Source: a virus. Taken from it: a DNA stretch of 38,328 nt. Position numbers and translations under genes: made by a program. Below the pieces are notes generated by a model that saw nothing but the letters and a program-made list of their open reading frames with translations, was not told the origin of the DNA and made no database searches. The first letter of the stretch is position 1. Each line of letters opens with the position of its first letter. The DNA lies in the IMG/VR virus record IMGVR_UViG_3300045988_083892, positions 1 to 38,328 of that record; one strand, given 5' to 3'. This document shows positions 1 to 38,328 of the stretch, piece after piece.

Positions 1-55
1 CGCCCCACGCCCAATTCATCAACATCAATCAGCCTCATGGTCAGCACCTCCGTCC
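1..55. repeat. Left copy of an exact 55-bp direct terminal repeat (identical to 38274..38328)
   Basis: Read directly: cgccccacgcccaattcatcaacatcaatcagcctcatggtcagcacctccgtcc occurs at both ends of the window. This is the signature of a circular assembly overlap or terminal redundancy. Confidence 0.97.
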
Positions 56-3022: not shown

Positions 3023-3286
3023 CTAACCACGGCGTTCCTCCTTCACGAACTCCGGGCAGGACCGGATGGCATAAGATGTCAGCACCCGCTTCTTCCGTCC
3101 CATCCCGGTGGATCGCTCCGTCCGGGTGGGCTTTGCCTTCCAGCCCGGAACTGGCTCAAAACGGGGCTTGTGGGTCACTGGATCAATACCGGACCAGGAA
3201 CACCCGCCGCAGGCTTTTGCGCAGTCCCAGCAGAGCTGACTGTGGGGGGCAATGAGGCAATCCGACAGCTTAATATCCGCAGCCAT
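3023..3286 (-). CDS. Cys-rich hypothetical protein
   Basis: 87-aa ORF with CWDCAKACGGCSW. Its start overlaps the upstream stop (TAATG). Confidence 0.7.
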   Translation of the reverse strand: MAADIKLSDCLIAPHSQLCWDCAKACGGCSWSGIDPVTHKPRFEPVPGWKAKPTRTERSTGMGRKKRVLTSYAIRSCPEFVKEERRG

Positions 3287-3690
3287 TACACGCCAGCTCC
3301 TTTCGCCATCTTTTCCCAGTCCGCATAGGTCATGCCCTGTTTTTTTGCTTCGGAGGGGGTGGGGATACCGGCATCGTGCCAGCGCTTGCGCTGTTCGCCT
3401 GCCCTGACGTAAAACTTTTCCAGATAGGCGTCGGACGGCTCCGGCATGGGTGCCTCCTTCGCCTTGCGGGCCTCCGGTTTGGGCAGGTAGGGGACCAGCT
3501 CGGAAGCATCCGGTGGGAACCGATTTTCCCGCGCCCGGAGGATGACCGCCTGTTTCGCGTCCTCATAAGCCCACGGCTTCAACACCAGCGTCCACGCCTC
3601 TAAATCTGCGGGGGTGCGGGGCTGCTGTTTGGAGCTGGGGTAAAGGGTCTCGATCAGGTTAAACAACCGCTTGGTGTCCTGTTTCTCCAT
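3286..3690 (-). CDS. Putative replicative-helicase loader, SPP1 G39P-like N-terminal domain
   Basis: LFNLIETLYPS...EAWTLVLKPWAYEDAKQAVILRARENRFPPDASELV follows the G39P pattern as I remember it (YP, W..L, Y.D...A, fPP). It has an AGGAGAAG RBS and sits directly downstream of the ori-like module. Confidence 0.55.
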   Translation of the reverse strand: MEKQDTKRLFNLIETLYPSSKQQPRTPADLEAWTLVLKPWAYEDAKQAVILRARENRFPPDASELVPYLPKPEARKAKEAPMPEPSDAYLEKFYVRAGEQRKRWHDAGIPTPSEAKKQGMTYADWEKMAKGAGV

Positions 3691-3715
3691 GTTCTTCTCC
3701 TGTAAGACTTCCGTA

Positions 3716-3803
3716 GAAGCCTCTAATTAGTCTCTAATTCCTGTATTAGCATCTAATTCTTTTCCCCCTGCCAATAGAGAGATAAATATATATATATATA
3801 TAA
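3716..3803. repeat. Ori-like / operator-like module I: TCTAAT boxes (direct and inverted), a C-run, AGAGAGATA, and an (AT)n tract
   Basis: Read directly: ctCTAATTAGtctCTAATTcctgtATTAGcatCTAATTcttttccccctgccaatagagagataa followed by atatatatatatatata (3786..3802). It lies in a 242-bp ORF-free gap and is homologous by eye to 13743..13830. Confidence 0.6.
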
Positions 3804-3932
3804 TCTTTTCTTCTTAGGGGGGTGTGGGGGGACGTTCTTCTTTTCTCTGCGGCTGCTGTGTGCGTCGGTGATCGTGCTGTGGCTTGCTTGCATCCACCCG
3901 TCATCACTCTTTAGACACACACGGCAACGTTG

Positions 3933-4346
3933 TTAAAAGGGAAGCTCCCCGTCATCCTGAATTTCTTCAAAGCCTCCGCTGCTGTTCATGGGCGGGGCGG
4001 CGGCGGTGCGGGCGTCGATGTGCTGAGCGCCGACAGATGCCCACTCCGCGATAAAGTCGATATAAGTCTTGCCCTCGTAGTCACGGGCTTCTACGCGGCC
4101 CACAGCAATGATGGGATCGCCTTTTGAGGCACTGGAGACCACCCGGCCCATGGAGCCGAAGCCCTTGACGGTCATCCAGACGGTGGTCCCGTCGGCCTTG
4201 CTGTAGGCCGGGACGGAGACGGAACCGATAACGGTTCCATTTTTGGAGGTGAAGATCTGGGCGTCCTTGGCGCAGCGCCCGCAGATCAGGCCGGTTTTCT
4301 GCTGTACGCCCTCCCGGTTGTAGTCCGGCAGCCCATTGATGAACAT
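3933..4346 (-). CDS. ssb: Single-stranded DNA-binding protein
   Basis: 137 aa with an OB-fold-like core and the acidic C-terminal tip EEIQDDGELPF typical of bacterial and phage SSB. It sits next to the annealing protein and exonuclease genes. Confidence 0.85.
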   Translation of the reverse strand: MFINGLPDYNREGVQQKTGLICGRCAKDAQIFTSKNGTVIGSVSVPAYSKADGTTVWMTVKGFGSMGRVVSSASKGDPIIAVGRVEARDYEGKTYIDFIAEWASVGAQHIDARTAAAPPMNSSGGFEEIQDDGELPF

Positions 4347-7056: not shown

Positions 7057-7650
7057 TTACTGGATCTCCTCCCAGACGAACCGGCCCTTGCCGCTGTTCC
7101 GCCACTGGCCAATGCCGGAGTACCGTCCATAGTCCAGCCATTCCCGGACGGCCTTCTCGTGATCGTCGCTGAAGCAGACCACCCGGAACTCGCAGGTAGC
7201 GCCTGCGGGGATCTCCTCACTCATGGCAAGGCTGACGCGCTCGCCCTGCGCCGTCTGTGCTCTCAGGGGGCGCTGACACTCGCCAATAGTGCCGTCAAAC
7301 TCCAGCGGGATCACGCGGGGCTCCGGGAAGATCAGCTTGTCGATCTCCTTCTTGTAAGCCTTGATCTTCTCACTGGCCGTGCCCTTGACCTTGCGGAGGC
7401 CGCCGCAGGTATCCTTGAAAAAGCCTTTGATCTGGTAGTCATACAGGAACGGGGTGCCATCCTCCATCCGGGGGAACACCGTCATGGCCTTCTCTGCCAC
7501 GACATCAGCGCCCAGCGCGGAGACTTCCTCCTCCACGGTGGCGGCATCGGGGGACTTGGAGCCAATGAACTCCCGGTAGATCTCCGGGTTGGCCGGGGAC
7601 GTGCCCAGAATTGGCTCGGTGAAGGTGAGCTTTACTTTCAGTTCTTTCAT
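7057..7650 (-). CDS. Hypothetical 197-aa protein with a RAMP-like C-terminal glycine-rich loop
   Basis: Start moved to ATG 7650 (AAGGAGA RBS). The N-terminus is MKELKVKLTFTEPILGTSP. The extreme C-terminus YSGIGQWRNSGKGRFVWEEI resembles the G.G.....G.G loop of Cas5/Cas6/Cas7-type RAMP proteins. No firm family assignment. Confidence 0.75.
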   Translation of the reverse strand: MKELKVKLTFTEPILGTSPANPEIYREFIGSKSPDAATVEEEVSALGADVVAEKAMTVFPRMEDGTPFLYDYQIKGFFKDTCGGLRKVKGTASEKIKAYKKEIDKLIFPEPRVIPLEFDGTIGECQRPLRAQTAQGERVSLAMSEEIPAGATCEFRVVCFSDDHEKAVREWLDYGRYSGIGQWRNSGKGRFVWEEIQ

Positions 7651-8352: not shown

Positions 8353-8375
8353 CCGGGAAATAGTTCGATTAAATC

Positions 8376-8576
8376 TTACTTTCTGGGTATAAAAATATTG
8401 TCCATGGGGACGCCGTAAAGATCGCAGAGGGAAAGCAGCTTGTCCGCCGGGGGAAATCGCTTGCCGATCTCCCAATTATAAATCGTGCGGCTGCTGACCC
8501 CAATGGATCTTGCGGCGTCTGCCTGCTTCATTCCACGGTTTACGCGGGCGGCGCGGAGGGTAACTTGAAAGCTCAT
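8376..8576 (-). CDS. Cro-like XRE-family HTH regulator (first gene of the leftward early arm)
   Basis: Start moved to ATG 8576 (AAAGGAG RBS). The HTH is RGMKQADAARSIGVSSRTIYNWEIGKRFP. It is 66 aa and divergent from the cI-like gene. Confidence 0.85.
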   Translation of the reverse strand: MSFQVTLRAARVNRGMKQADAARSIGVSSRTIYNWEIGKRFPPADKLLSLCDLYGVPMDNIFIPRK

Positions 8577-8612
8577 AGCGCGAACTCCTTTCGTTCGATT
8601 TAATCTAACATT

Positions 8613-8641
8613 ATAATACCACCGGCGAAAAGGGATGTCAA
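8613..8641 (-). promoter_or_regulatory. Leftward early promoter
   Basis: On the minus strand: TTGACA (8641..8636), a 17-nt spacer, then TATTAT (8618..8613), with TATAAT also overlapping. Confidence 0.65.
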
Positions 8642-8673
8642 GCAAAAAGTTAGGTTAAAACGAAAAAAAGTTC

Positions 8674-8702
8674 TTGCAATTCGATTTAAAATGACTTACA
8701 AT
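8674..8702 (+). promoter_or_regulatory. Rightward repressor promoter
   Basis: TTGCAA (8674..8679), a 17-nt spacer, then TACAAT (8697..8702). The -10 covers ATG 8701, so the repressor most likely starts at ATG 8731. Confidence 0.6.
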
Positions 8703-8730
8703 GGATTTAACAAAAAAGGGGGTGAAACCA

Positions 8731-9078
8731 ATGGGGCAAGAAGAAATCTGTGCAGTTTTTGCGCGGAATCTAAATAAATTGATGGTCCGGGAAAACCTGA
8801 AGCAAAGCGATCTCGTATTAAAATTGAGCGTGTCGAAAGCGCAGGTATCAGATTGGTGCGCCGGGAAGAACATTCCCAGATCGAACTATCTGGCCGCGCT
8901 GGTAGACCTGTTCGGCTGTCAGCTTTCAGAACTCATGAGCGAAAAACAGCCCGCCCCCACGGATGAGGGCGAGCTGAGCGAAGAGGATAAAAAGCTGCTC
9001 ATGATGATCCACAATCTTTCTCCGGAGAATCGGGCGCGGATCGTTGCGATAATAGAAGCTCTTGCAGGGCTTGAATAG
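8731..9078 (+). CDS. cI-like XRE-family repressor (HTH plus short C-terminal helical tail)
   Basis: Start set to ATG 8731 behind AAGGGGGTGA. The HTH is LKQSDLVLKLSVSKAQVSDWCAGKNIP. An acidic linker follows, then LLMMIHNLSPENRARIVAIIEALAGLE. Confidence 0.85.
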   Translation: MGQEEICAVFARNLNKLMVRENLKQSDLVLKLSVSKAQVSDWCAGKNIPRSNYLAALVDLFGCQLSELMSEKQPAPTDEGELSEEDKKLLMMIHNLSPENRARIVAIIEALAGLE

Positions 9079-9393: not shown

Positions 9394-10476
9394 ATGGCAA
9401 AGAAAAGCAAATATGGCGTCCGAAAGGACGGGCTGCACGAGGCAATCCGCACTATCAACGGCAAGCGGGTGGCCTTTCGCGGCAAGACAGATCGAGAGAT
9501 CGACCGCAAAATCTTAGAGTACCAGATGGAGGCGGAGAAGGGCCGGAATTTCCCGGTGATCGCGGATGAATGGGAGCGGGAACACGAGAGCGAGATCTCC
9601 GAATCATCCCGGCGGGTATACAGCTACGCTGTGAAGCGTCTGAAAAAGGCGTTTCCGGGCAGGGCGTCGGAGATCGAGCCGGTAGACGTGCGAAACTACA
9701 TCAAGCGCTTTGAGGCGCAAGGGCGCAGTGCCAACAGCGTCGGCATTGAGCTGGCGGTCTGCCGGATGATTTTTGCCCACGCGGTCATCCAGGGAGACAT
9801 TCGGATCAATCCGGCGGCGGAGGTGAAAAAAAGCCGGGGCCTGCCCTGCAAAAAGCGGGAGGCACTGACGGAGGAACAGGAGGAGGCCGTGAAAGCGGCG
9901 GGTCTGACAAAGGCGGGCCGCTGGTGGCTGTTTGGCTATCTGCTGCTTTACACCGGATGCCGCCGGGGTGAGGCGTTGGCGCTGACCTACAAGGACATTG
10001 ACCGCCGCGCCGGTGTGATACACGTCAACAAAAAGGTCAGCTACGCCACCGGCAAGCCGGTGCTCGAAAATCACCTGAAGTCGGAGAACGGTCTGCGGGA
10101 CATTCCCCTGCTGCCCCCTCTGGCGGACGCATTGCCGAAAAACCGGATCGGGCTGCTGTTCCCCGGTGACGATGGGGGCTATATGCGGCCCCACGAGATC
10201 ACGCGGGAGTGGCGGCACTACTGCCGGGGCGTTGGCCTGAATGAGATCCAGCAGGGCGAAAACGGCGAGACGTTGGAGACGTTCCCTATCACGCCGCACT
10301 GCTTCAGGCACAGCTTTGCAACGATCTGCTATGAGGCGGGGCTTGATCCAAGACAGGCGGCTGGCCTGCTGGGCGATACGCCGGAGGTGGTGGAAGCGGT
10401 TTACACCCATCTGCGGCAGGACCGAAAGCAGACGGCAGCCGAAAAGCTGACGGCGTATTTTGAAGCTGTAAAGTAA
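9394..10476 (+). CDS. int: Tyrosine recombinase / phage integrase
   Basis: 360 aa. Catalytic-region motifs are TGCRRGEALAL, HCFRHSFAT and LLGDTPEVVEAVYTHL (the R...HxxR...Y pattern). It has an N-terminal SAM-like core-binding region and an AGGAGGAAAGG RBS. Confidence 0.92.
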   Translation: MAKKSKYGVRKDGLHEAIRTINGKRVAFRGKTDREIDRKILEYQMEAEKGRNFPVIADEWEREHESEISESSRRVYSYAVKRLKKAFPGRASEIEPVDVRNYIKRFEAQGRSANSVGIELAVCRMIFAHAVIQGDIRINPAAEVKKSRGLPCKKREALTEEQEEAVKAAGLTKAGRWWLFGYLLLYTGCRRGEALALTYKDIDRRAGVIHVNKKVSYATGKPVLENHLKSENGLRDIPLLPPLADALPKNRIGLLFPGDDGGYMRPHEITREWRHYCRGVGLNEIQQGENGETLETFPITPHCFRHSFATICYEAGLDPRQAAGLLGDTPEVVEAVYTHLRQDRKQTAAEKLTAYFEAVK

Positions 10477-12109: not shown

Positions 12110-12613
12110 TCAAGCCGGGAGCGCATCGGAGGTGGCAGCGGAGCGGGCAAAGGTGGTGCTGCCGTACTTACTGCGGATCTCTGCCATGGTCTTGGTGCCC
12201 TTGTGCCAGCGCTGGCCTTCCTCGGCGAAATGCCAACTCCATAGCTTCTTAGTGGAGGACCAGCGGCACCCGGCAGCCTTCAGGGCTTCCTTGTGCTCCT
12301 TGGTGTTGCCGCCGATCCAGAGCCAGCGGCCGCACAACTCAATTTCGAGGCCGTCCAGCTTCAGCAGGGCCGCGATGATAGCAATGAAATCGCCGGCGCT
12401 CTCGGTGGTGGCGTGGGTCCGTCCGGTGGTGTCCTCGGCGGCCTGCTCGTTCTGGCTGCGCTTCAGGACTTCAAACCGGGCGGAATACTCGGCGTTGATG
12501 GCCTGCATGGTGGCGGTGTCTCCGCCCATGTCGGGGTGGTTCTTCATGGCGGCGGCCTTGTAAGCCTTCTTCAGTTCGTCGAGGTTGCGGCAGTTGATAA
12601 AGTAAGTAGTCAT
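12110..12613 (-). CDS. J-domain (DnaJ-like) protein with a W-rich C-terminal domain
   Basis: LDELKKAYKAAAMKNHPDMGGDTATMQAINAEYSARFEVLK is a canonical J domain with an HPD motif. The C-terminus has WLWIGGNTKEHKEALKAAGCRWSSTKKLWSWH. It has a TAGGAGGA RBS. Confidence 0.85.
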   Translation of the reverse strand: MTTYFINCRNLDELKKAYKAAAMKNHPDMGGDTATMQAINAEYSARFEVLKRSQNEQAAEDTTGRTHATTESAGDFIAIIAALLKLDGLEIELCGRWLWIGGNTKEHKEALKAAGCRWSSTKKLWSWHFAEEGQRWHKGTKTMAEIRSKYGSTTFARSAATSDALPA

Positions 12614-12998: not shown

Positions 12999-13454
12999 AT
13001 GAAAATACCAGATTATTCTGGAGCAGGAATTTACAAAATCAAAATCGGGAGTGCCTTTTATGTCGGGTCATCAAAGAACATCAAAAAACGGATACGGTCC
13101 CACCTGAGCAACATAGCAAACGGAACGGAAATGAAGAAAATTCAAGCAGCCGCCGAAAGCGGAGAGGAAATACATGTTGACATACTCGAAAAAATTTCTG
13201 ATAATGAAACCGTATGGCACATGCTGTTGAGGGAAAGATACTGGATCGAACAGCTGCGGCCAGAGCTTAACAGCGCGCCGCCGGGCGGCTATGATGATGT
13301 CTTTGACAGGATCAGAGCAGCGGAAGAAAGCGCAAGGCGTCATGAACGGATCGCCGCCGGTCATCGGGCTTACGCCAAGAGCATGAAAAGGAAATATTTG
13401 AGAAAGATAGGTGGCGAAATTGACAACAAACAGGAAGAAACTGGAAACAAATGA
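12999..13454 (+). CDS. GIY-YIG nuclease domain protein (free-standing, low GC)
   Basis: GIYKIKIGSAFYVGSSKNIKKRIRSHL ... RERYWIEQLRPELN matches the GIY, YVG, R and E motifs. It has a basic C-terminal tail and is markedly AT-richer than the rest of the genome. Confidence 0.85.
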   Translation: MKIPDYSGAGIYKIKIGSAFYVGSSKNIKKRIRSHLSNIANGTEMKKIQAAAESGEEIHVDILEKISDNETVWHMLLRERYWIEQLRPELNSAPPGGYDDVFDRIRAAEESARRHERIAAGHRAYAKSMKRKYLRKIGGEIDNKQEETGNK

Positions 13455-13605
13455 GAGGTATTTACAAAAGCTGGAAAGGATCGTTTTTCGGATCCATAAG
13501 GACGGCAGCGACGGATTTACAAAAGATCAGGTAGAAGCGGCAGCAGCGGCGGCAGGCCAGAGCGTCAACGCCTGGATCATTGAGGCCATCCGGGACAAGC
13601 TGTAA
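13411..13605 (+). CDS. Ribbon-helix-helix (Arc/CopG-like) DNA-binding protein
   Basis: ERIVFRIHKD (beta strand) ... GQSVNAWIIEAIRDKL is typical of Arc/CopG RHH proteins. It uses a GTG start and overlaps the GIY-YIG gene by 44 nt. The RBS is weak, so the start is uncertain. Confidence 0.65.
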   Translation: MAKLTTNRKKLETNERYLQKLERIVFRIHKDGSDGFTKDQVEAAAAAAGQSVNAWIIEAIRDKL

Positions 13606-13616
13606 CGAGAGCGAAA

Positions 13617-13652
13617 GCGTCGAGGGATAACACCCCCGGCGCTTTTCTCTTT
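13617..13652 (+). terminator. Rho-independent terminator after the RHH gene
   Basis: Stem gcgtcgaggg / cccccggcgc (one mismatch, one G-T pair), loop ataaca, then ttttctcttt. Confidence 0.65.
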
Positions 13653-13653
13653 G

Positions 13654-13737
13654 TGTGGGGCGGGGCGGCAGCAGCGGCAGAGGGAGAGAGGGAGAAGGAG
13701 GGGGGACTATAGGGGGGAGAATAAGAGAGTGAGAGTG
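13654..13737 (+). repeat. Polypurine (G/A) tract with a perfect 15-nt mirror repeat
   Basis: 13679..13706 is 28 consecutive purines. gagggagagagggag (13680..13694) is mirror-symmetric. The whole span is roughly 85% purine by eye. Confidence 0.85.
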
Positions 13738-13742
13738 TTACA

Positions 13743-13830
13743 AGCGTCTAATAAGCGTTAGATGCTTAGTATTAGCGTCTAATACTTAGCACACCCCCCA
13801 AAGAGAGATATATATTCTCTGGGTATAGAT
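13743..13830. repeat. Ori-like / operator-like module II: two long palindromes built from GCGTCTAAT half-sites, a C-run, AGAGAGATA, and TA-rich tracts
   Basis: AGCGTCTAAtaagcgTTAGATGCT at 13743..13766. CTTAGTATTAGcgtCTAATACTTAG at 13765..13789 (11-bp arms, one mismatch). These are followed by ccccccaaagagagatatatat and tatagatatatatac. It aligns by eye with 3743..3793. Confidence 0.65.
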
Positions 13831-13974
13831 ATATATACTTGCTTCTACTGGGAGAGTCACGAAAGAGGGAGACACGGCGAATAAAAAACGCGAGAGAGCG
13901 AGGAAACACGAGGAAACGTGAGCAAAACAGAGCATTTGCAAGGTATTCGAAGCTATTGCGAGGTAGACCGCGAA

Positions 13975-14227
13975 TGGGGCGGGGCTGGCGGTGGGCTGGT
14001 GGATGGCGGCGGCTGATGGGGGCAATTCGGCGGGGGCAATTCCCTTTCCCGGTGAGATTTAAGGGGTCATTAAATATTTTCGTTGCGGCTGCTTGGCTTC
14101 GGCTGCTGCTGTGTTGTTTCTGTGCAGTTTCTCTCCCGGTTCGGGCTATTCCGGTCACGGCTCCGGCTGGGGCTTTATCCATCTCCGGGGCTGGGGCTGA
14201 TGGTCTGGGGCTGGTGGTGGCTGATGG
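13975..14227 (+). repeat. G-rich short-repeat field (GGGGCTGG, GGCTGATGG, GGGGGCAATTC)
   Basis: GGGGCTGG-type boxes occur at 13981, 14187, 14193 and 14207. GGCTGATGG occurs at 14011, 14195 and 14219. GGGGGCAATTC occurs at 14018 and 14032. TGGGGCGGGGC is also found at 13658. Confidence 0.8.
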
Positions 14228-14252
14228 TGAAGGCTTCTTCTACCGATGGATA

Positions 14253-14405
14253 GGAGGGGTAGCGGAAAAAGAGGGGGTGTCTCTTCCTCGTGGTATAGGG
14301 CTATATACCCACATCCCCTCTCCCCTCTGAGAAACCTGTCAGTGCAGCTGCGGAAAGCTATGCCGGTGATCCCTCTGGGGGGGTGGCGGAAAAAGGGGGC
14401 GGGGG
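14253..14405 (+). repeat. Two copies of GGGGT(A/G)GCGGAAAAAG(A)GGGGG bracketing a long imperfect hairpin
   Basis: The copies are at 14253..14279 and 14377..14405. agagggggtgt (14270..14280) pairs with acatcccctct (14311..14321). The inner stem is gtggtata / tatatacccac. Confidence 0.7.
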
Positions 14406-14542
14406 ATTTTATGTAGAACATTACGAAAATAACTGAAACCTATTGTATTCGCTTGATGAAATATGCTTGAATGAAGTTGGCGGAAGAGGTTTCCACCTGC
14501 CTCCTATGTCAGACGCCAGTTTTCACTTTCCTTTCCTGTTGC

Positions 14543-14567
14543 CCGGTGGGCCGGTCGGGCCCACCGG
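14543..14567 (+). other. Perfect 10-bp GC-rich hairpin 5 nt upstream of the tRNA
   Basis: ccggtgggcc ggtcg ggcccaccgg, with no T-run after it. Confidence 0.7.
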
Positions 14568-14572
14568 AGCAT

Positions 14573-14648
14573 GGTTTCGTAGCTCAGTCGGAAGAGCGAG
14601 CGGTTGTTAACCGCTGGGTCGCAGGTTCAATCCCTGCCGAAACCGCCA
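14573..14648 (+). tRNA. tRNA-Asn (anticodon GUU) with encoded CCA
   Basis: Hand-folded cloverleaf. Acceptor stem GGTTTCG/CGAAACC; D stem GCTC/GAGC; anticodon stem AGCGG/CCGCT; loop TTGTTAA; 5-nt variable loop; T arm GCAGG-TTCAATC-CCTGC; discriminator G; then CCA. Confidence 0.93.
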
Positions 14649-17168: not shown

Positions 17169-18221
17169 ATGGCTATCAATTACGCCGTTAAATACGCAAC
17201 CAAGATCGCGGAGGCTTTCTCTAAGCCTTCTATCACCGACGACGATGCCGGTAAGGCATACACCTGGACCGGCCCCAACAGCAAGACCATTGTCGTTGGC
17301 AGTGTGGACACCGTGCCGGAGACCGAGTACACCAACACCGGCGACAACCGATTCGGCACCACCTATGACCTGGGCGACACTCAGCAGGAGATGACCTGCG
17401 AGCAGAAGCCCGCCTTCTCCTTCACCATCGACGCGGTGGATCAGACGGATCAGGCCATTGAGAAGTCCGCTTCCCGCGCCCTGCGGCGTCAGCTGGAGCA
17501 GCGGACCACCCCCAACATGGACCGCCACCGCATCAAGAAGTGGGTGATGGGCGCTAATATCCAGCGTCAGGAGACAACCGCCCCCACCAAGAGCACCATC
17601 GGCGGCCTGATTATTGACCTGAACGCCGATATGACCAACGCCCTGGTGCCCATGGAGAACCGCACCCTGTACATTGCCACCAGCTATTACAAGCTGCTGA
17701 AGCAGGATCCCGCCTGGCTGGGCACCGAGAGCCTTGCCAAGGAGGCCCTGACCAGAGGCGTGGTGGGCCAGTACGACGGCTGCCGGGTGAAGAACATCCC
17801 CGACCGCTATATGCCCGCCGGCGTGTACTTCTTCATCAAGTGGAAGGGAAGCACCGTGGACCCCGTGAAGCTGGCGCAGTACGACATTTTGCCCAAGGTG
17901 AAGGGCTATTCTGGACCCGTGGTGCAGGGCGTGACCTACTATGACAGCTTCGTGCTGGGTGCCAAGGGCGACGGTGTTGCCGTGTGCGGCAACGCTGCCA
18001 TTCTGGCCGCACCCGTGATGTCTATTACCGGCCATGCCGTCAGCATCACTGCCGTGTCCGGTGTGGTGTTCAAGTACACCACCGACGGCACCAACCCCCG
18101 GTACTCCAACACCGCCCAAATCTACACCGCTGCTGTGACCCTGACCGCCGGTCAGACCATGCGGGCTGTGGCCACCAAGGACGGCTGCGTGGGCATTGAG
18201 GGCACCAAGGATTACGAGTGA
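17169..18221 (+). CDS. Major capsid protein with a C-terminal Ig-like / chitobiase-type (CHB_HEX_C-like) domain
   Basis: 350 aa, following the scaffold-like gene and followed by a strong hairpin. The last 76 aa or so (FKYTTDGTNPRYSNTAQIYTAAVTLTAGQTMRAVATKDG) match the YT.DGS.P ... Y...i.l....i.a.a pattern of that domain. Confidence 0.7.
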   Translation: MAINYAVKYATKIAEAFSKPSITDDDAGKAYTWTGPNSKTIVVGSVDTVPETEYTNTGDNRFGTTYDLGDTQQEMTCEQKPAFSFTIDAVDQTDQAIEKSASRALRRQLEQRTTPNMDRHRIKKWVMGANIQRQETTAPTKSTIGGLIIDLNADMTNALVPMENRTLYIATSYYKLLKQDPAWLGTESLAKEALTRGVVGQYDGCRVKNIPDRYMPAGVYFFIKWKGSTVDPVKLAQYDILPKVKGYSGPVVQGVTYYDSFVLGAKGDGVAVCGNAAILAAPVMSITGHAVSITAVSGVVFKYTTDGTNPRYSNTAQIYTAAVTLTAGQTMRAVATKDGCVGIEGTKDYE

Positions 18222-18311: not shown

Positions 18312-19697
18312 ATGCCTCGATATAAACAGACAGCAGGCGGAACGGTACAAGTGGATTTGGGGACGCTGAACCCCAAACAGAAGCAGTTCTGCCAGTCCCG
18401 GAGCCGGTACACGGCTTACGGCGGTGCCAGAGGCGGCGGCAAGACACACGTTCTGCTGCGGAAGGCGGCAGGCGGCGCGCTCACCTACTCCGGCATCAAG
18501 ATCCTGATCGTGCGCCGGGAGTACCCGGAATTGGAGCAGAACATCATTCTGCCCATGCAGAAGCTGATCCCGCCGGAGGTGGGCAGCTACAACGGCAGTA
18601 TGCGCATGATGTTTTTCTGCAACGGCAGCATTATCAAGTTCGGCCACTACGGAGCGGGGGACGATCAGGAATATCAGGGACTTGAATTTGACTGGATCTT
18701 CATGGAGGAGGCCACCCAGTTCTCAGAATCCCAGTTCCGCACGCTGGGCGCGTGTTTGCGCGGCGCGACGAAGTTTCCCCGGCGGATGTACCTGACCTGC
18801 AACCCCGGCGGCATCGGCCACCTGTGGGTAAAGAGGCTGTTCGTGGATCGGGAATACCGGGAGGGGGAAAAGGCCAAGGATTACACCTTTATCCCCGCCA
18901 CGGTGGACGATAACCCCCAGCTTTTGGAGGCGTCCCCGGAGTACAAGCAAATGCTGGACCTACTGCCGGAGGATGTGCGGCGGGCGTGGCGCTACGGCGA
19001 TTGGAACGCCATGGCAGGCACGTTCTTCCCGGAGTTCCGGCGGGAGACCCATGTGATCACGCCCTTTGTGCGGGTGCCCCAGGAGTGGAAGAAATACCGG
19101 GCGTTCGATTATGGTCTTGATATGTTCGCCTGCCTTTGGGTGGCGGTGGACTTTGAGGGGCGGGCCTATGTGTACCGGGAGGTACAGCAAAGCGGCCTGA
19201 TCGTCAGCGAGGCGGCAAAGCTGGCAATTGCCCTGACGCCGCCGGAGGAACACATTGAGTTCACCATTGCCCCGCCGGATATGTGGAACCGGCAGAAGGA
19301 CAGCGGGCGGAGCATGGCAGAGATTTTTGCACAGAACGGATTAGGGCTGCTGAAAGCCAGCAATAACCGCGTTCAGGGCTGGATGGCCGTCAAGGAGCTG
19401 CTGAAGCCCATGAAGAGTGACACGGACCGGCCCGGACTACTGGTGACGGAAAACTGCGTGGGCCTGATCCGCAATCTGCCCTCCATCCAGCATGACGAGA
19501 AAAACCCGTCGGACTGCGCCACGGAGCCCCACGAGATCACCCATATCTGCGACGCTGCCCGGTATTTCTGCGTGACCCGCGTTTTGGGCGCTCAGAAAAC
19601 CGTGGAGAAGATCGTGGACGATTTCGACGAGGGCGAGGACTACGATGACGTGATGACGGGCGGGGAAATGACCGCCGGTTATCTATCATACGGATAA
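18312..19697 (+). CDS. terL: Terminase large subunit
   Basis: Walker A is YGGARGGGKTH and Walker B-like is FDWIFMEEATQF. It has a C-terminal nuclease-like region and is 461 aa with an AAGGAG RBS. Confidence 0.9.
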   Translation: MPRYKQTAGGTVQVDLGTLNPKQKQFCQSRSRYTAYGGARGGGKTHVLLRKAAGGALTYSGIKILIVRREYPELEQNIILPMQKLIPPEVGSYNGSMRMMFFCNGSIIKFGHYGAGDDQEYQGLEFDWIFMEEATQFSESQFRTLGACLRGATKFPRRMYLTCNPGGIGHLWVKRLFVDREYREGEKAKDYTFIPATVDDNPQLLEASPEYKQMLDLLPEDVRRAWRYGDWNAMAGTFFPEFRRETHVITPFVRVPQEWKKYRAFDYGLDMFACLWVAVDFEGRAYVYREVQQSGLIVSEAAKLAIALTPPEEHIEFTIAPPDMWNRQKDSGRSMAEIFAQNGLGLLKASNNRVQGWMAVKELLKPMKSDTDRPGLLVTENCVGLIRNLPSIQHDEKNPSDCATEPHEITHICDAARYFCVTRVLGAQKTVEKIVDDFDEGEDYDDVMTGGEMTAGYLSYG

Positions 19698-37070: not shown

Positions 37071-37289
37071 TTATGGATGCTTTTTGCTTGGGCGGGATAT
37101 GCCCGCTTTATCCCGGATGGAGCGCAGGCAGGAGGTGACGGAGGATCGGGACAAGTACAGCTCTGCTGCCGCATCCTCGATCGCCCAGCCGCGGCGGCAA
37201 ACCAGATTGAACACGCGCCGCTCCCGGTCGGTGAGATAGCGGCACTGCTCCATTTTCTTGAGCTGCTGGACGGTGTATCGGTATTTCAT
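37071..37289 (-). CDS. Sigma-70 region-4-like HTH protein (candidate late-gene activator)
   Basis: LTDRERRVFNLVCRRGWAIEDAAAELYLSRSSVTSCLRSIRDK matches the sigma r4 / LuxR-type HTH pattern. Only 72 aa. Confidence 0.65.
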   Translation of the reverse strand: MKYRYTVQQLKKMEQCRYLTDRERRVFNLVCRRGWAIEDAAAELYLSRSSVTSCLRSIRDKAGISRPSKKHP

Positions 37290-37342
37290 AATGGGCCTCC
37301 TTTATGAAGTGCCCTTCCCCTTTGACCTACCGATGCAGGGGG

Positions 37343-37543
37343 TCAGGACCCCTGCGCATCTATCATGGCTAACAGCTTTTCCAGATCGTAAAAATTCCGG
37401 GGGTCCAGCCCGGTTTCCCGCTGAATGAGCCGAAAGCGGTAGCGGATGGAGTTGTAGTGCAGGTAAACCGCGCCGCTGGTCTTTTTCATGCTCATGTTGT
37501 TCTCCGCATAGGCTTTCAGAAGTTTTCTGTCCCGATCCTCCAT
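37343..37543 (-). CDS. PucR-C-terminal-like HTH protein
   Basis: AVYLHYNSIRYRFRLIQRETGLDPRNFYDLEKLLAMI resembles the PucR/CdaR C-terminal HTH (hrnT..YRl..i...tG.d). 66 aa. Confidence 0.55.
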   Translation of the reverse strand: MEDRDRKLLKAYAENNMSMKKTSGAVYLHYNSIRYRFRLIQRETGLDPRNFYDLEKLLAMIDAQGS

Positions 37544-38024: not shown

Positions 38025-38311
38025 TCAGCTCCGTCATCCTTTCTCTCGCTGTAACTGCAAAAGAATGTCCTTGTGTCCAGCTCAAACGGCAAAAACGCGA
38101 TGTTTGTTTTGGAGCAAAATGCGTATATATCTTTTCGATTCCACACGCACAAATGCTTACAGTCTTTGCACCGCGTCACGACCACGGCATCCACGGTGGG
38201 GGCTTTTTCAATCAAGCCAAGTAAGCCGTTCCAACCAGCACAATACGCCGCAGGGAGAACATCTTTGCTGCACCGCCCCACGCCCAATTCATCAACATCA
38301 ATCAGCCTCAT
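38021..38311 (-). CDS. Small Cys-rich protein, related to 37580..37879
   Basis: Start set to ATG 38311, 6 nt after GGAGGTG. It contains VVVTRCKDCKHLCVW ... FCSYSERK. Its 5' end lies inside the terminal repeat. Confidence 0.7.
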   Translation of the reverse strand: MRLIDVDELGVGRCSKDVLPAAYCAGWNGLLGLIEKAPTVDAVVVTRCKDCKHLCVWNRKDIYAFCSKTNIAFLPFELDTRTFFCSYSERKDDGAE

Positions 38312-38328
38312 GGTCAGCACCTCCGTCC
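38274..38328. repeat. Right copy of the exact 55-bp direct terminal repeat
   Basis: Identical to 1..55, base for base. Confidence 0.97.

What the first reader, a model, noticed from the sequence alone, without database searches (positions are those of the whole stretch)
3716..3803. Duplicated palindrome / C-run / AGAGAGATA / (TA)n module at two loci about 10 kb apart (second copy 13743..13830): twin origins or shared operators?
GTATTAGCaTCTAATtCTT..CCCCC..AAtAGAGAGATAaATATAT (3743..3793) aligns by eye with GTATTAGCgTCTAATaCTT..CCCCCC..AAaGAGAGATATATAT (13769..13815), matching at roughly 40 of 50 positions in the same orientation.

Both copies carry further TCTAAT/ATTAG boxes forming palindromes. 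Both are flanked by G-runs and a gcggctgctgtgtg-like string (3849 and 14100).

Copy I sits between ssb and the G39P-like loader. Copy II sits just after the RHH gene and before the late arm.

Iterons plus an AT-rich unwinding tract are what an origin looks like, and SPP1 is known to have two initiator-bound origins (oriL and oriR). Alternatively the TCTAA-N-TTAGA palindromes may be operators for the adjacent Arc-like RHH protein, since the Arc operator also uses TAGA half-sites.
Basis: partly seen in the sequence, partly recalled or inferred. Interest (0 to 1): 0.65.

Follow-up and report, generated by a model that had tools for sequence, protein, structure and literature searches.

The report
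Duplicated box-plus-(TA)n non-coding module in gut phage
A temperate gut phage of Oscillospiraceae carries two copies of a non-coding module, short symmetric DNA boxes next to an easily melted TA-repeat; it looks most like a pair of replication origins, but a transcription-control site is nearly as likely.

Summary
3713-3815 aligns with 13738-13846 in the same orientation, scoring 49 against 17.4 +/- 2.2 for shuffles (0 of 1000 reach it).

The window is a complete circular genome of about 38.3 kb from a temperate Oscillospiraceae phage. More than 100 related contigs carry the module at both loci.

It has two parts:
- A core: C-run, AGAGAGAT, a length-variable (TA)n tract, a pyrimidine run and a G-run. 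It is roughly symmetric. The two copies are the two least stable duplex stretches in the genome.
- A swappable cassette of about 11-bp boxes, TTAG-N3-CTAA, roughly one helical turn apart.

Copy I lies between ssb and a lone G39P-like loader gene, where SPP1 has gene 38 with oriL. Copy II lies in a roughly 970-nt non-coding leader after the RHH gene's terminator.

What I ruled out or weakened:
- No conserved -35/-10 spacing exists on either strand.
- The CI/Cro operators are a different sequence.
- The four RHH N-terminal variants do not follow the cassette type, so the RHH-operator idea is disfavoured.
- No G38P- or G40P-like gene was found, and no protein that varies with the boxes.

Best reading: an origin-type site of iterons plus an unwinding element (about 0.38). 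Main rival: a factor-dependent promoter/operator (about 0.30). No replication or transcript data could be obtained.

The parts
3716..3757 (.). Box array I. Half box GAAG-CCT-CTAA at 3716-3726, then dyad boxes TTAG-TCT-CTAA (3727-3737) and TTAG-CAT-CTAA (3746-3756). Starts are spaced 11 and 19 nt.
   Evidence: The half-sites are conserved and the N3 spacer varies among relatives.
3764..3768 (.). C5 run, the left GC clamp of core I.
   Evidence: It pairs with the G-run in the folds.
3776..3783 (+). AGAGAGAT purine tract of core I.
   Evidence: this motif occurs only at the two loci.
3782..3804 (.). A/T tract including (TA)10, ending in TATAAT (3799-3804). It is the least stable duplex in the genome.
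   Evidence: Its length varies by roughly 7-23 nt among relatives.
3805..3831 (.). Pyrimidine tract CTTTTCTTCTT followed by G6-TGT-G6 (3817-3831), the right GC clamp.
   Evidence: Conserved in all locus I variants.
3852..3928 (-). Long inverted repeat just after the ssb stop codon. It contains the 'gcggctgctgtgtg' string as one arm. No U-tract follows it.
   Evidence: RNA fold -30.2 kcal/mol, z -2.4.
3691..3723 (-). Leader of the loader gene: SD AGGAG (3697-3701 on the + strand) and a hairpin with a UACG tetraloop (3706-3723).
   Evidence: two-hairpin leader, z -4.0; no compensatory changes. The hairpin and SD are duplicated in L354.
3286..3690 (-). G39P-like helicase loader gene, with no organizer or helicase neighbour.
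3933..4346 (-). SSB gene.
13741..13791 (.). Box array II: CAAG-CGT-CTAA (13741-13751), TTAG-ATG-CTTA (13758-13768), TTAG-CGT-CTAA (13772-13782), and the 13+3+13 perfect palindrome at 13763-13791.
   Evidence: In relatives this cassette is replaced by types A', B, C or D.
13794..13823 (.). Core II: C6 (13794-13799), AGAGAGAT (13802-13809), (TA)n (13808-13815), then TCTCTGGG.
13824..13846 (+). Second TA tract TATAGATATATATAC, with TATACT at 13834-13839, followed by TTGCTTCT. This is the right border conserved in cassette types A, B and D.
13700..13717 (.). G6-ACTATA-G6. It is the inverted counterpart of the C6-TATAAT-C6 found in more distant relatives.
13614..13655 (+). Intrinsic terminator of the RHH gene: hairpin followed by TTTTCTCTTT.
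   Evidence: -25.4 kcal/mol, z -2.8.
13411..13605 (+). RHH/HicB-like ORF. Only its last 23 codons are conserved across relatives.

Best explanation
The two loci are copies of a two-part, cis-acting DNA site that most likely works as an origin-type nucleoprotein and unwinding site.

Shown:
- Each copy has 2-3 dyad boxes (TTAG-N3-CTAA), most of them spaced at about one helical turn or a multiple of it.
- Next to them lies a roughly symmetric core: a length-variable (TA)n tract between a purine run and a pyrimidine run, closed by C and G runs.
- The two cores are the two most easily melted stretches of the genome.
- The module is conserved at both positions in the whole phage family.

Inferred:
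- An unidentified box-binding protein, which is neither CI/Cro nor the RHH protein, assembles on the phased boxes and distorts the neighbouring TA tract.
- The GC clamps confine the bubble.
- SSB and the G39P-like loader, both encoded right beside copy I, bring in the host replicative helicase, since the phage has none of its own.
- Copy I would be the working origin, in the slot of SPP1 oriL.
- Copy II would be a second binding or initiation site, comparable to SPP1 oriR. In SPP1, oriR is proposed to stall the fork and trigger the switch to concatemer synthesis.
For: Position.
- Copy I fills the only large gap of the early leftward operon. It lies between ssb and a G39P-like gene.
- In SPP1 and in Paenibacillus phage Pd_22F, that place holds the organizer gene. 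In SPP1 it also holds oriL.

Anatomy.
- Repeated boxes lie next to an AT-rich tract, which is the organisation described for SPP1 oriL and oriR (PMC6316719, PMC5737612).
- Both copies have the same polarity on the + strand even though the flanking genes run in opposite directions.

Physical property. Loci I and II rank first and second for lowest duplex stability at window sizes of 30, 50 and 100 nt.

Tolerance of length change. The A/T tract varies by roughly 7-23 nt among relatives. An unwinding element tolerates that; a fixed promoter spacer does not.

Symmetry conserved, sequence not. Variants of core I keep an AT-rich centre between complementary arms of different sequence: C5/G6, CACACAC/GTGTGTG, CTCTCTCTC/GAGAGAGAG.

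Not a plain promoter.
- The phage's real early promoters are near-consensus (TTGACA-17-TATTAT, TTGCAA-17-TACAAT).
- Neither strand of the module has a -35/-10 pair conserved among relatives.
- No terminator separates ssb from the loader gene, so no new promoter is needed there.

Weak support. The cumulative GC-skew minimum falls at 3400-3800, inside a run of genes that all point the same way.
Against: - No origin-binding initiator was found (G38P/DUF4373, DnaD-like, Rep/HUH), and no phage helicase, in Pfam, PHROG or PDB scans of nearly all early ORFs.
- Box cassettes at locus I (types T, G, N and others) and at locus II (types A, A', B, C, D) assort independently of each other. They also assort independently of every phage protein tested, apart from physical linkage.
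- Many relatives have no TTAG boxes at locus II (type B, the majority) or at either locus.
- The GC-skew pattern does not fit a simple bidirectional model.
- The right edge of each TA tract reads as a -10 hexamer (TATAAT, TATACT). Copy II sits where a late promoter is needed, after a terminator.
- There are no replication data of any kind.
Confidence: 0.38

Rival explanations
1. The module is a factor-dependent promoter/operator used twice. The right edge of the TA tract is the -10 element (TATAAT at 3799-3804, TATACT at 13834-13839). The boxes bind an activator or repressor. Copy II would be the late promoter. Copy I would drive an antisense or origin-activating RNA rightwards, or, read on the other strand, a middle promoter for the loader operon with the boxes acting as a downstream operator.
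For: - Both TA tracts end in hexamers that resemble -10 elements, and the sequence just downstream is also similar (CTTTTCTTCT against CTTGCTTCT).
- Copy II follows the terminator of the RHH gene. No consensus promoter lies between it and the late genes, so a late promoter is needed about there.
- Dyad boxes are typical operators.
- Two small HTH regulators conserved in all relatives are encoded at the end of the early operon: 37343-37543(-), PucR-type, 1e-12; and 37071-37289(-), sigma region 4/GerE-like.
- In L354 the whole module stays upstream of an inserted gene, as a regulatory region would.
- The L348-type core has CTAACA-17-TATTAT on the loader strand (read directly).
Against: - No -35/-10 pair is conserved among relatives on either strand. 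The TAGAGA-18-TATAAT match in the window depends on its particular (TA)10 length.
- The TA tract length varies in 2-nt steps, which would change both spacing and helical phase.
- The two copies share one polarity, but the genes next to them point in opposite directions.
- The order of boxes and TA tract is not fixed in type C cassettes.
- No regulator varies with the boxes.
Confidence: 0.3
2. The boxes are operators of the adjacent Arc-like RHH protein (13411-13605).
For: - An RHH-like ORF ends 133 nt upstream of copy II. It neighbours this non-coding region even in distant relatives.
- Short dyad or tandem sites about one helical turn apart are typical of RHH proteins (general knowledge of Arc, MetJ, CopG and omega).
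Against: - Among relatives the ORF has at least four unrelated N-terminal halves, which include the DNA-reading beta-strand. Variants v1, v2 and v3 all occur with cassette type A; all four occur with type B; v1 and v2 occur with types C and D.
- Copy I is 10 kb from the RHH gene.
- Relatives keep the RHH gene while lacking the boxes altogether.
Confidence: 0.05
3. The module acts in RNA. The palindromes form hairpins in the local transcript: the minus-strand leader of the loader gene and the plus-strand late leader. These could serve as processing, stability or translation-control sites.
For: - The loader leader (3770-3691, minus strand) folds into a well-defined two-hairpin structure: -16.7 kcal/mol, z -4.0, MFE frequency 0.59. 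One hairpin has a UACG tetraloop just upstream of the SD.
- The cassette of copy II folds with z -2.8 on the + strand.
- Palindromes form hairpins in either transcript, which would remove the orientation problem.
- Three one-sided changes keep pairing through G-U on the mRNA strand.
Against: - There are no compensatory changes. The covariation score is no better than shuffles, and several variants break pairs.
- Cassette types C, D and most of G are direct repeats that form no hairpin.
- The main core hairpin is no more stable than shuffles, z +0.3.
- Rfam gives nothing.
Confidence: 0.1
4. The module has no dedicated function of its own. It would be a recombination-prone junction of low-complexity DNA (TA microsatellite, G/C runs) where mosaic blocks are exchanged, copied from one locus to the other by chance.
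For: - Cassettes are swapped precisely between conserved flanks.
- Type A' is a deletion between the two AGCGTCTAATA repeats.
- Many assemblies break inside the two loci.
- Boxes are absent from many viable-looking relatives.
Against: - The core is kept at both loci in essentially every family member, while neighbouring genes are exchanged.
- Box half-sites are conserved while their spacers vary. The variant TAAG-N3-CTTA keeps the symmetry.
- Arm complementarity is kept with different arm sequences.
Confidence: 0.1

Closest known systems
SPP1 oriL and oriR (Bacillus subtilis phage SPP1)
   Same: - Two similarly organised sites about 10-13 kb apart on the circular map, each with repeats next to an AT-rich unwinding tract.
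- One site lies in the replication module just upstream of the G39P-type loader gene. The other lies in a long non-coding stretch near the late genes.
- The exonuclease, annealing protein, SSB and RusA-type resolvase genes are arranged around it in the same way.
   Different: - No G38P-type origin-binding gene exists here; the slot is non-coding, whereas oriL lies inside gene 38.
- There is no G40P helicase.
- The repeats are 11-bp dyad boxes, not AB boxes.
- The boxes are a swappable cassette and are missing in many relatives.
- This phage is temperate, with an integrase and a CI/Cro switch.
Iteron plus AT-rich origins of lambdoid phages (ori-lambda)
   Same: Dyad-symmetric repeats at helical phasing next to an AT-rich tract with purine/pyrimidine strand bias, located in the replication gene cluster.
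   Different: Ori-lambda lies inside the gene of the protein that binds it (O). Here no such gene was found, and there is a second copy elsewhere in the genome.
Operator/promoter modules used twice in one phage (lambda OL/PL and OR/PR; P22 immI Arc/Mnt operators)
   Same: Clusters of short dyad sites next to a -10-like element, at two distant loci.
   Different: - The lambda modules face outwards with fixed promoter geometry and bind a repressor that co-varies with them.
- Here both copies have the same polarity, the spacing is not conserved, the CI/Cro operators are a different sequence (TTCGATTTAA), and no co-varying regulator was found.
Double-strand origin of rolling-circle plasmids (pMV158: 11-bp direct repeats plus a hairpin with the nick site)
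   Same: About 11-bp repeats next to an inverted repeat that could extrude as a hairpin.
   Different: No HUH/Rep nuclease gene was found and no recognisable nick sequence. This comparison rests on memory only.

Membership tests
SPP1-type twin origins (oriL/oriR) | Array of repeats (iterons) at each site | tested here: met
   TTAG-N3-CTAA boxes occur only at the two loci, 3 found against 0.11 expected. There are 2-5 units at 10-11 nt phase in cassette types A, C, D, G and T.
SPP1-type twin origins (oriL/oriR) | Adjacent AT-rich DNA unwinding element | tested here: met
   The two loci rank first and second for lowest nearest-neighbour duplex stability in the genome at 30, 50 and 100 nt. Actual unwinding was not tested.
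SPP1-type twin origins (oriL/oriR) | Phage-encoded origin-binding protein (G38P/replisome organizer), with oriL inside its gene | tested here: not met
   No hit to an organizer, DUF4373, DnaD or Rep family in the early ORFs scanned. The slot upstream of the loader is 242 nt of non-coding DNA.
SPP1-type twin origins (oriL/oriR) | G39P-type loader together with a G40P (DnaB-type) helicase | tested here: not met
   The loader is present. No helicase-sized ORF lies in the early operon and no helicase hit was found. Pd_22F shows the full triad for comparison.
SPP1-type twin origins (oriL/oriR) | Replication starts at the site, and the initiator binds both sites | not testable with these tools
Sigma-A promoter with operator | -35 and -10 hexamers 16-18 nt apart, conserved among relatives | tested here: not met
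   The only match is TAGAGA-18-TATAAT in the window. The spacer is 10-16 nt in most relatives because the (TA)n length varies. No match at locus II.
Sigma-A promoter with operator | Dyad-symmetric operator next to the promoter | tested here: met
Sigma-A promoter with operator | A cognate regulator that varies together with the operator type | tested here: not met
   No window ORF follows the box type beyond linkage to neighbouring genes. The CI/Cro operators are TTCGATTTAA.
Sigma-A promoter with operator | A transcript starts at the site | not testable with these tools
   No transcript data were available.
Arc/Mnt-type RHH operator | The operator co-varies with the DNA-reading beta-strand of the adjacent RHH protein | tested here: not met
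   Four N-terminal variants were found. Three of them (v1-v3) occur with cassette type A.
Intrinsic terminator | GC-rich hairpin followed by a U-run on the transcribed strand | tested here: not met
   No terminator was found on the minus strand at locus I or inside module II. The real terminator lies at 13614-13655, outside the module.
Known RNA family (Rfam) | Match to a curated covariance model | tested here: not met
   Only the tRNA passes the threshold. Sub-threshold hits are chance hairpin matches.

The most novel reading that the evidence does not exclude
This phage family may have dispensed with its own origin-binding protein and helicase. It would keep only a bare iteron/unwinding cassette in the old organizer slot, plus a lone G39P-like loader. 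Origin recognition would then be left to a host protein or to an unrecognised small phage protein. The box cassettes exchanged between relatives at both loci would act as interchangeable specificity or incompatibility determinants, and the second copy would serve as an oriR-like fork-stalling site.
Probability: 0.12. Interest if true: 0.7.

Novelty: new variant of a known kind. Interest (0 to 1): 0.45.

Why it matters
These phages are common in the human gut: more than 100 related contigs were recovered here, and one early protein has more than 7900 close homologues. Their hosts, Dysosmobacter and Oscillibacter, are hard to grow, and nothing is known about how such phages replicate or time their gene expression.

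A defined 100-nt module present twice per genome gives two short fragments that can be tested directly. Possible tests are protein pull-down, plasmid replication or interference assays, 5'-end mapping, and read-depth profiles.

If the module is an origin, it would show an SPP1-like replication module that works with a loader but without its organizer and helicase. If it is a promoter/operator, it would define the middle or late regulatory signal of this phage group.

The length-variable TA tract also explains why assemblies of these phages often break at these two places.

Tried and rejected
- Exact-pattern scan of viral contigs with GTATTAGCNTCTAAT: 120 or more unrelated chance hits, of no use.
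- Megablast of 6 kb against GenBank phages: no match.
- DnaA boxes: 9 one-mismatch hits, none at either locus, not enriched.
- Terminator reading of the core: no U-run. The main core hairpin is no better than shuffles.
- Rfam at gathering and relaxed thresholds: only the tRNA.
- RNA covariation in the loader leader: none.
- Intrinsic curvature as the reason for the boxes: only the 98th and 92nd percentile. The real curvature peak is 90 nt downstream, at about 13925.
- Co-variation of box type with CI, Cro, SSB, the loader, the 87-aa protein, the small HTH regulators and all other early ORFs: nothing beyond linkage. T boxes occur with two loader N-domain types.
- Coding potential of 13606-14572: no ORF is conserved among relatives.
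- Contig ends at the loci as possible physical genome ends: the ends are scattered over about 150 nt and some carry adapter sequence, so they are assembly breaks.
- A third occurrence of GTATTAGCGTCTAA in two relatives lies inside a coding gene, so it is chance.
- CIRCE/HrcA resemblance (TTAGCAC...): the right arm is absent. Rejected by eye.
- More distant relatives (226-aa protein 55-63% identical; TerL 76-82%) lack the module.
- Search for an initiator by structure: the 197-aa early protein turned out to be Cas7-like, not an initiator.

Full report
**What the window is.** The window has a 55-nt exact terminal repeat, so it is a circular assembly of one 38,273-bp genome. It encodes:
- a tyrosine integrase, 9394-10476(+);
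- a CI-like repressor, 8701-9078(+), and a Cro-like HTH protein, 8376-8645(-);
- a long leftward early operon that runs through the window ends;
- a rightward structural arm, with the large terminase at 18312-19697.

No GenBank phage is close. The nearest relatives are IMG/VR and ENA human-gut contigs of 38-40 kb. Related terminases sit in Dysosmobacter, Oscillibacter and other Oscillospiraceae genomes. The host is therefore a Bacillota member with sigma-A type promoters.

- 3714-3814 aligns with 13739-13846 in the same orientation. The score is 49 against 17.4 +/- 2.2 for dinucleotide shuffles, and 0 of 1000 reach it.
- Five of 8 TCTAAT lie in the two loci.
- The fuller box TTAG-N3-CTAA occurs three times, all there, against 0.11 expected.
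- AGAGAGATAWATATAT occurs only there.
- Six of 16 G/C runs of at least 6 bases lie at the loci.
- The 'gcggctgctgtgtg' similarity in the flanks is marginal, with 3 of 500 shuffles reaching it. At locus I the string is one arm of a long inverted repeat after ssb.

**Anatomy from comparison.** I collected locus I from 35 viral and 79 metagenome contigs, and locus II from 36 viral contigs. Both loci are conserved in position in the whole family, and both have two parts.

The first part is a core. It consists of a C-run, AGAGAGAT, an A/T tract built on (TA)n, a pyrimidine run and a G-run.
- The commonest form of locus II (type B: CCCCCTACCCCAGAGAGATAAATATATATTTCTTACAGGGGGGTGT) is even closer to locus I (CCCCCTGCCAATAGAGAGATAAATATATATAATCTTTTCTTCTTAGGGGGGTGT) than the window's own locus II is.
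- The duplication is therefore a property of the family and not of this genome alone.
- The core is roughly symmetric. Variants of locus I keep an AT-rich centre between complementary arms of different sequence: C5/G6, CACACAC/GTGTGTG (fold z -4.3) and CTCTCTCTC/GAGAGAGAG (z -2.7).
- The A/T tract varies by roughly 7-23 nt among relatives.

The second part is a cassette of boxes between conserved flanks.
- Locus I has types T (the TCTAAT boxes), G (TAATAGCTTCT twice, plus TTAGCTGCTGCAGCAGCTAA) and N (GTAGnACnTCT three times, no TTAG boxes), plus further variants.
- Locus II has type A (the window), A' (one box, a deletion between the two AGCGTCTAATA repeats), B (no boxes, the majority), C and D.
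- Types A, C, D, G and T share one unit, T(T/A)AG-N3-CT(T/A)A, at 10-11 nt phase. The half-sites are conserved and the spacers vary. One variant, TAAG-N3-CTTA, keeps the symmetry.
- The family, as defined by TerL at 98% or more, is the only group with the module. Relatives with TerL at 76-82% instead have C6-TATAAT-C6, a large AGAGAG/TATA palindrome (z -5.4 and -6.0) and a terminator after the same RHH gene.

**What the module is not.**
- It is not coding. No ORF is conserved in 13606-14572, and the 2-nt length steps of the TA tract exclude a reading frame at locus I.
- It is not a terminator.
- It matches no known RNA family.
- It is not the CI/Cro operator set. The cI-cro region has near-consensus promoters, TTGACA-17-TATTAT and TTGCAA-17-TACAAT, with TTCGATTTAA repeats.
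- It is not a plain sigma-A promoter. The one match, TAGAGA-18-TATAAT, depends on the window's (TA)10 length and is lost in relatives.
- It is probably not the operator of the neighbouring RHH protein. That ORF has at least four unrelated N-terminal halves, including the beta-strand that reads DNA in this fold. Variants v1, v2 and v3 all occur with cassette type A, and all four occur with type B.

**Who binds the boxes is unknown.**
- Pairing loci by contig (19 genomes) shows that the cassette types at the two loci assort independently: T with A, B or C; G with A or B; N with B.
- No window ORF follows box type except through linkage to the adjacent loader and SSB genes. T boxes occur with two quite different loader N-domains.
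- Two small HTH proteins at the far end of the early operon are conserved in all types, so they cannot explain cassette specificity. They are a PucR-type protein at 37343-37543(-) and a sigma region 4/GerE-like protein at 37071-37289(-).

**Evidence that bears on function.**
1. Loci I and II are the first and second least stable duplex stretches of the genome at 30, 50 and 100 nt.
2. Copy I occupies the place between ssb and the G39P-like gene.
   - In SPP1 that place holds gene 38 with oriL inside it. In Paenibacillus phage Pd_22F it holds a DUF4373 organizer followed by the loader and a DnaB helicase.
   - The window has neither organizer nor helicase.
3. SPP1's two origins share repeats plus an AT-rich unwinding element. 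They lie about 13 kb apart, and oriR sits in a long intergenic region (PMC6316719).
4. No terminator separates ssb from the loader, so a promoter is not required at locus I.
5. A terminator does follow the RHH gene (-25.4 kcal/mol plus a U-run), and no consensus promoter precedes the late genes. A late promoter must therefore lie somewhere in the 970-nt leader, and copy II is a candidate.
6. Both copies have the same polarity on the + strand although the neighbouring genes diverge. This fits a function tied to the DNA molecule, such as replication direction, or a rightward promoter at both sites.
7. The cumulative GC-skew minimum falls on locus I. However, the skew elsewhere does not fit a simple replication model, so this counts for little.
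8. The loader leader folds well on the mRNA strand (z -4.0), with a UACG hairpin before the SD, but there is no covariation.
9. In L354 a 237-aa gene is inserted between the module and the loader. The module stays upstream and the hairpin-SD piece is duplicated. This fits either reading.

**Verdict.** The module is a real, family-conserved, cis-acting DNA element with a conserved meltable core and an exchangeable array of dyad boxes.
- The origin-type reading (boxes as iterons, TA tract as unwinding element, SSB and loader encoded alongside) is the best single explanation, at about 0.38. Its weak points are the missing initiator and the dispensability of the boxes.
- A factor-dependent promoter/operator is close behind, at about 0.30.
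- The RHH-operator idea is disfavoured (0.05).
- An RNA-level role (0.10) and a functionless recombination junction (0.10) remain possible.
- Replication and transcript data would decide the matter.

Noticed in passing
window 7057-7650 (-): An early-operon protein of 197 aa has more than 7900 homologues at 80% identity or more in gut metagenomes, with no Pfam family and no name. It has a C-terminal glycine-rich loop (SGIGQWRNSGKGRF). Its AlphaFold model is of low confidence (pLDDT 59.5, pTM 0.59). The model matches Cas7/Csm3-type RAMP subunits of type VII and type III CRISPR complexes (8z4j_F, E 6e-5, TM 0.55). It may be a lone phage-encoded Cas7-like protein.
   Followed up: partly
window 14573-14648 (+): A tRNA-Asn (GTT) gene lies at the end of the long non-coding leader, just before the first late ORF.
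   Followed up: yes
window 1-55 and 38274-38328: A 55-nt exact terminal direct repeat shows that the window is a circular assembly of one 38,273-bp genome. Relatives bridge the junction.
   Followed up: yes
window 12999-13605 (+): The GIY-YIG nuclease gene (12999-13454) overlaps the start of the RHH ORF. None of the 19 paired relatives has a match to it. Across relatives only the last 23 codons of the RHH ORF are conserved, joined to at least four different N-terminal halves.
   Followed up: partly
window 13700-13717; L199, L203, L205, L219, L224, L234: G6-ACTATA-G6 in the window is the inverted counterpart of C6-TATAAT-C6 in more distant relatives. There it is followed by a long AGAGAG/TATA palindrome and a terminator, which may be a small RNA gene or a leader.
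   Followed up: partly
window 13890-13945: Phased A-tracts (CGAGGAAACA repeated, then GAGCAAAACA) give the second-highest predicted intrinsic curvature of the genome, 90 nt downstream of module II. The nearby AATAAAAAACGCGAGAG motif is conserved even in distant relatives.
   Followed up: no
window 14058-14080: The palindrome ATTTAA-N-TTAAAT (GATTTAAGGGGTCATTAAAT) is conserved in position in distant relatives. The tandem GGGGGCAATTC repeats at 14018-14042 are not obviously conserved there. Together they could be a packaging or regulator site.
   Followed up: no
L141, L152, L186, L280-L346 (several): About 17 of 80 metagenome contigs, and several IMG/VR contigs, end inside locus I or locus II. 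The ends are scattered over about 150 nt. The TA tract and the cassette differences between strains break assemblies there.
   Followed up: partly
L165:1-23 and L190:1-52: Two IMG/VR contigs begin with sequencing adapter (Nextera mosaic end; TruSeq index adapter) fused to phage sequence near window 14406 and about 14150.
   Followed up: no
L354:2255-2968: One relative has a 237-aa gene (coiled coil plus zinc-ribbon-like CxxC pairs) inserted between module I and the loader. The UACG hairpin and SD are duplicated.
   Followed up: partly
window 37071-37543 (-): Two small HTH proteins lie at the far end of the early operon and are conserved in all relatives: a PucR-type protein of 66 aa (1e-12) and a sigma region 4/GerE-like protein of 72 aa. 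They are candidate late regulators.
   Followed up: partly
window 8360-8700: The cI-cro switch region has near-consensus divergent promoters and three TTCGATTTAA-type repeats, which are probably the CI/Cro operators.
   Followed up: partly
window 12110-12613 (-) and 17169-18221 (+): One protein has an N-terminal J-domain (DnaJ-like, 1.3e-4). The 350-aa protein just upstream of the terminase has a C-terminal CHB_HEX_C/Fn3-associated domain, yet it hits a 'major head protein' PHROG.
   Followed up: no
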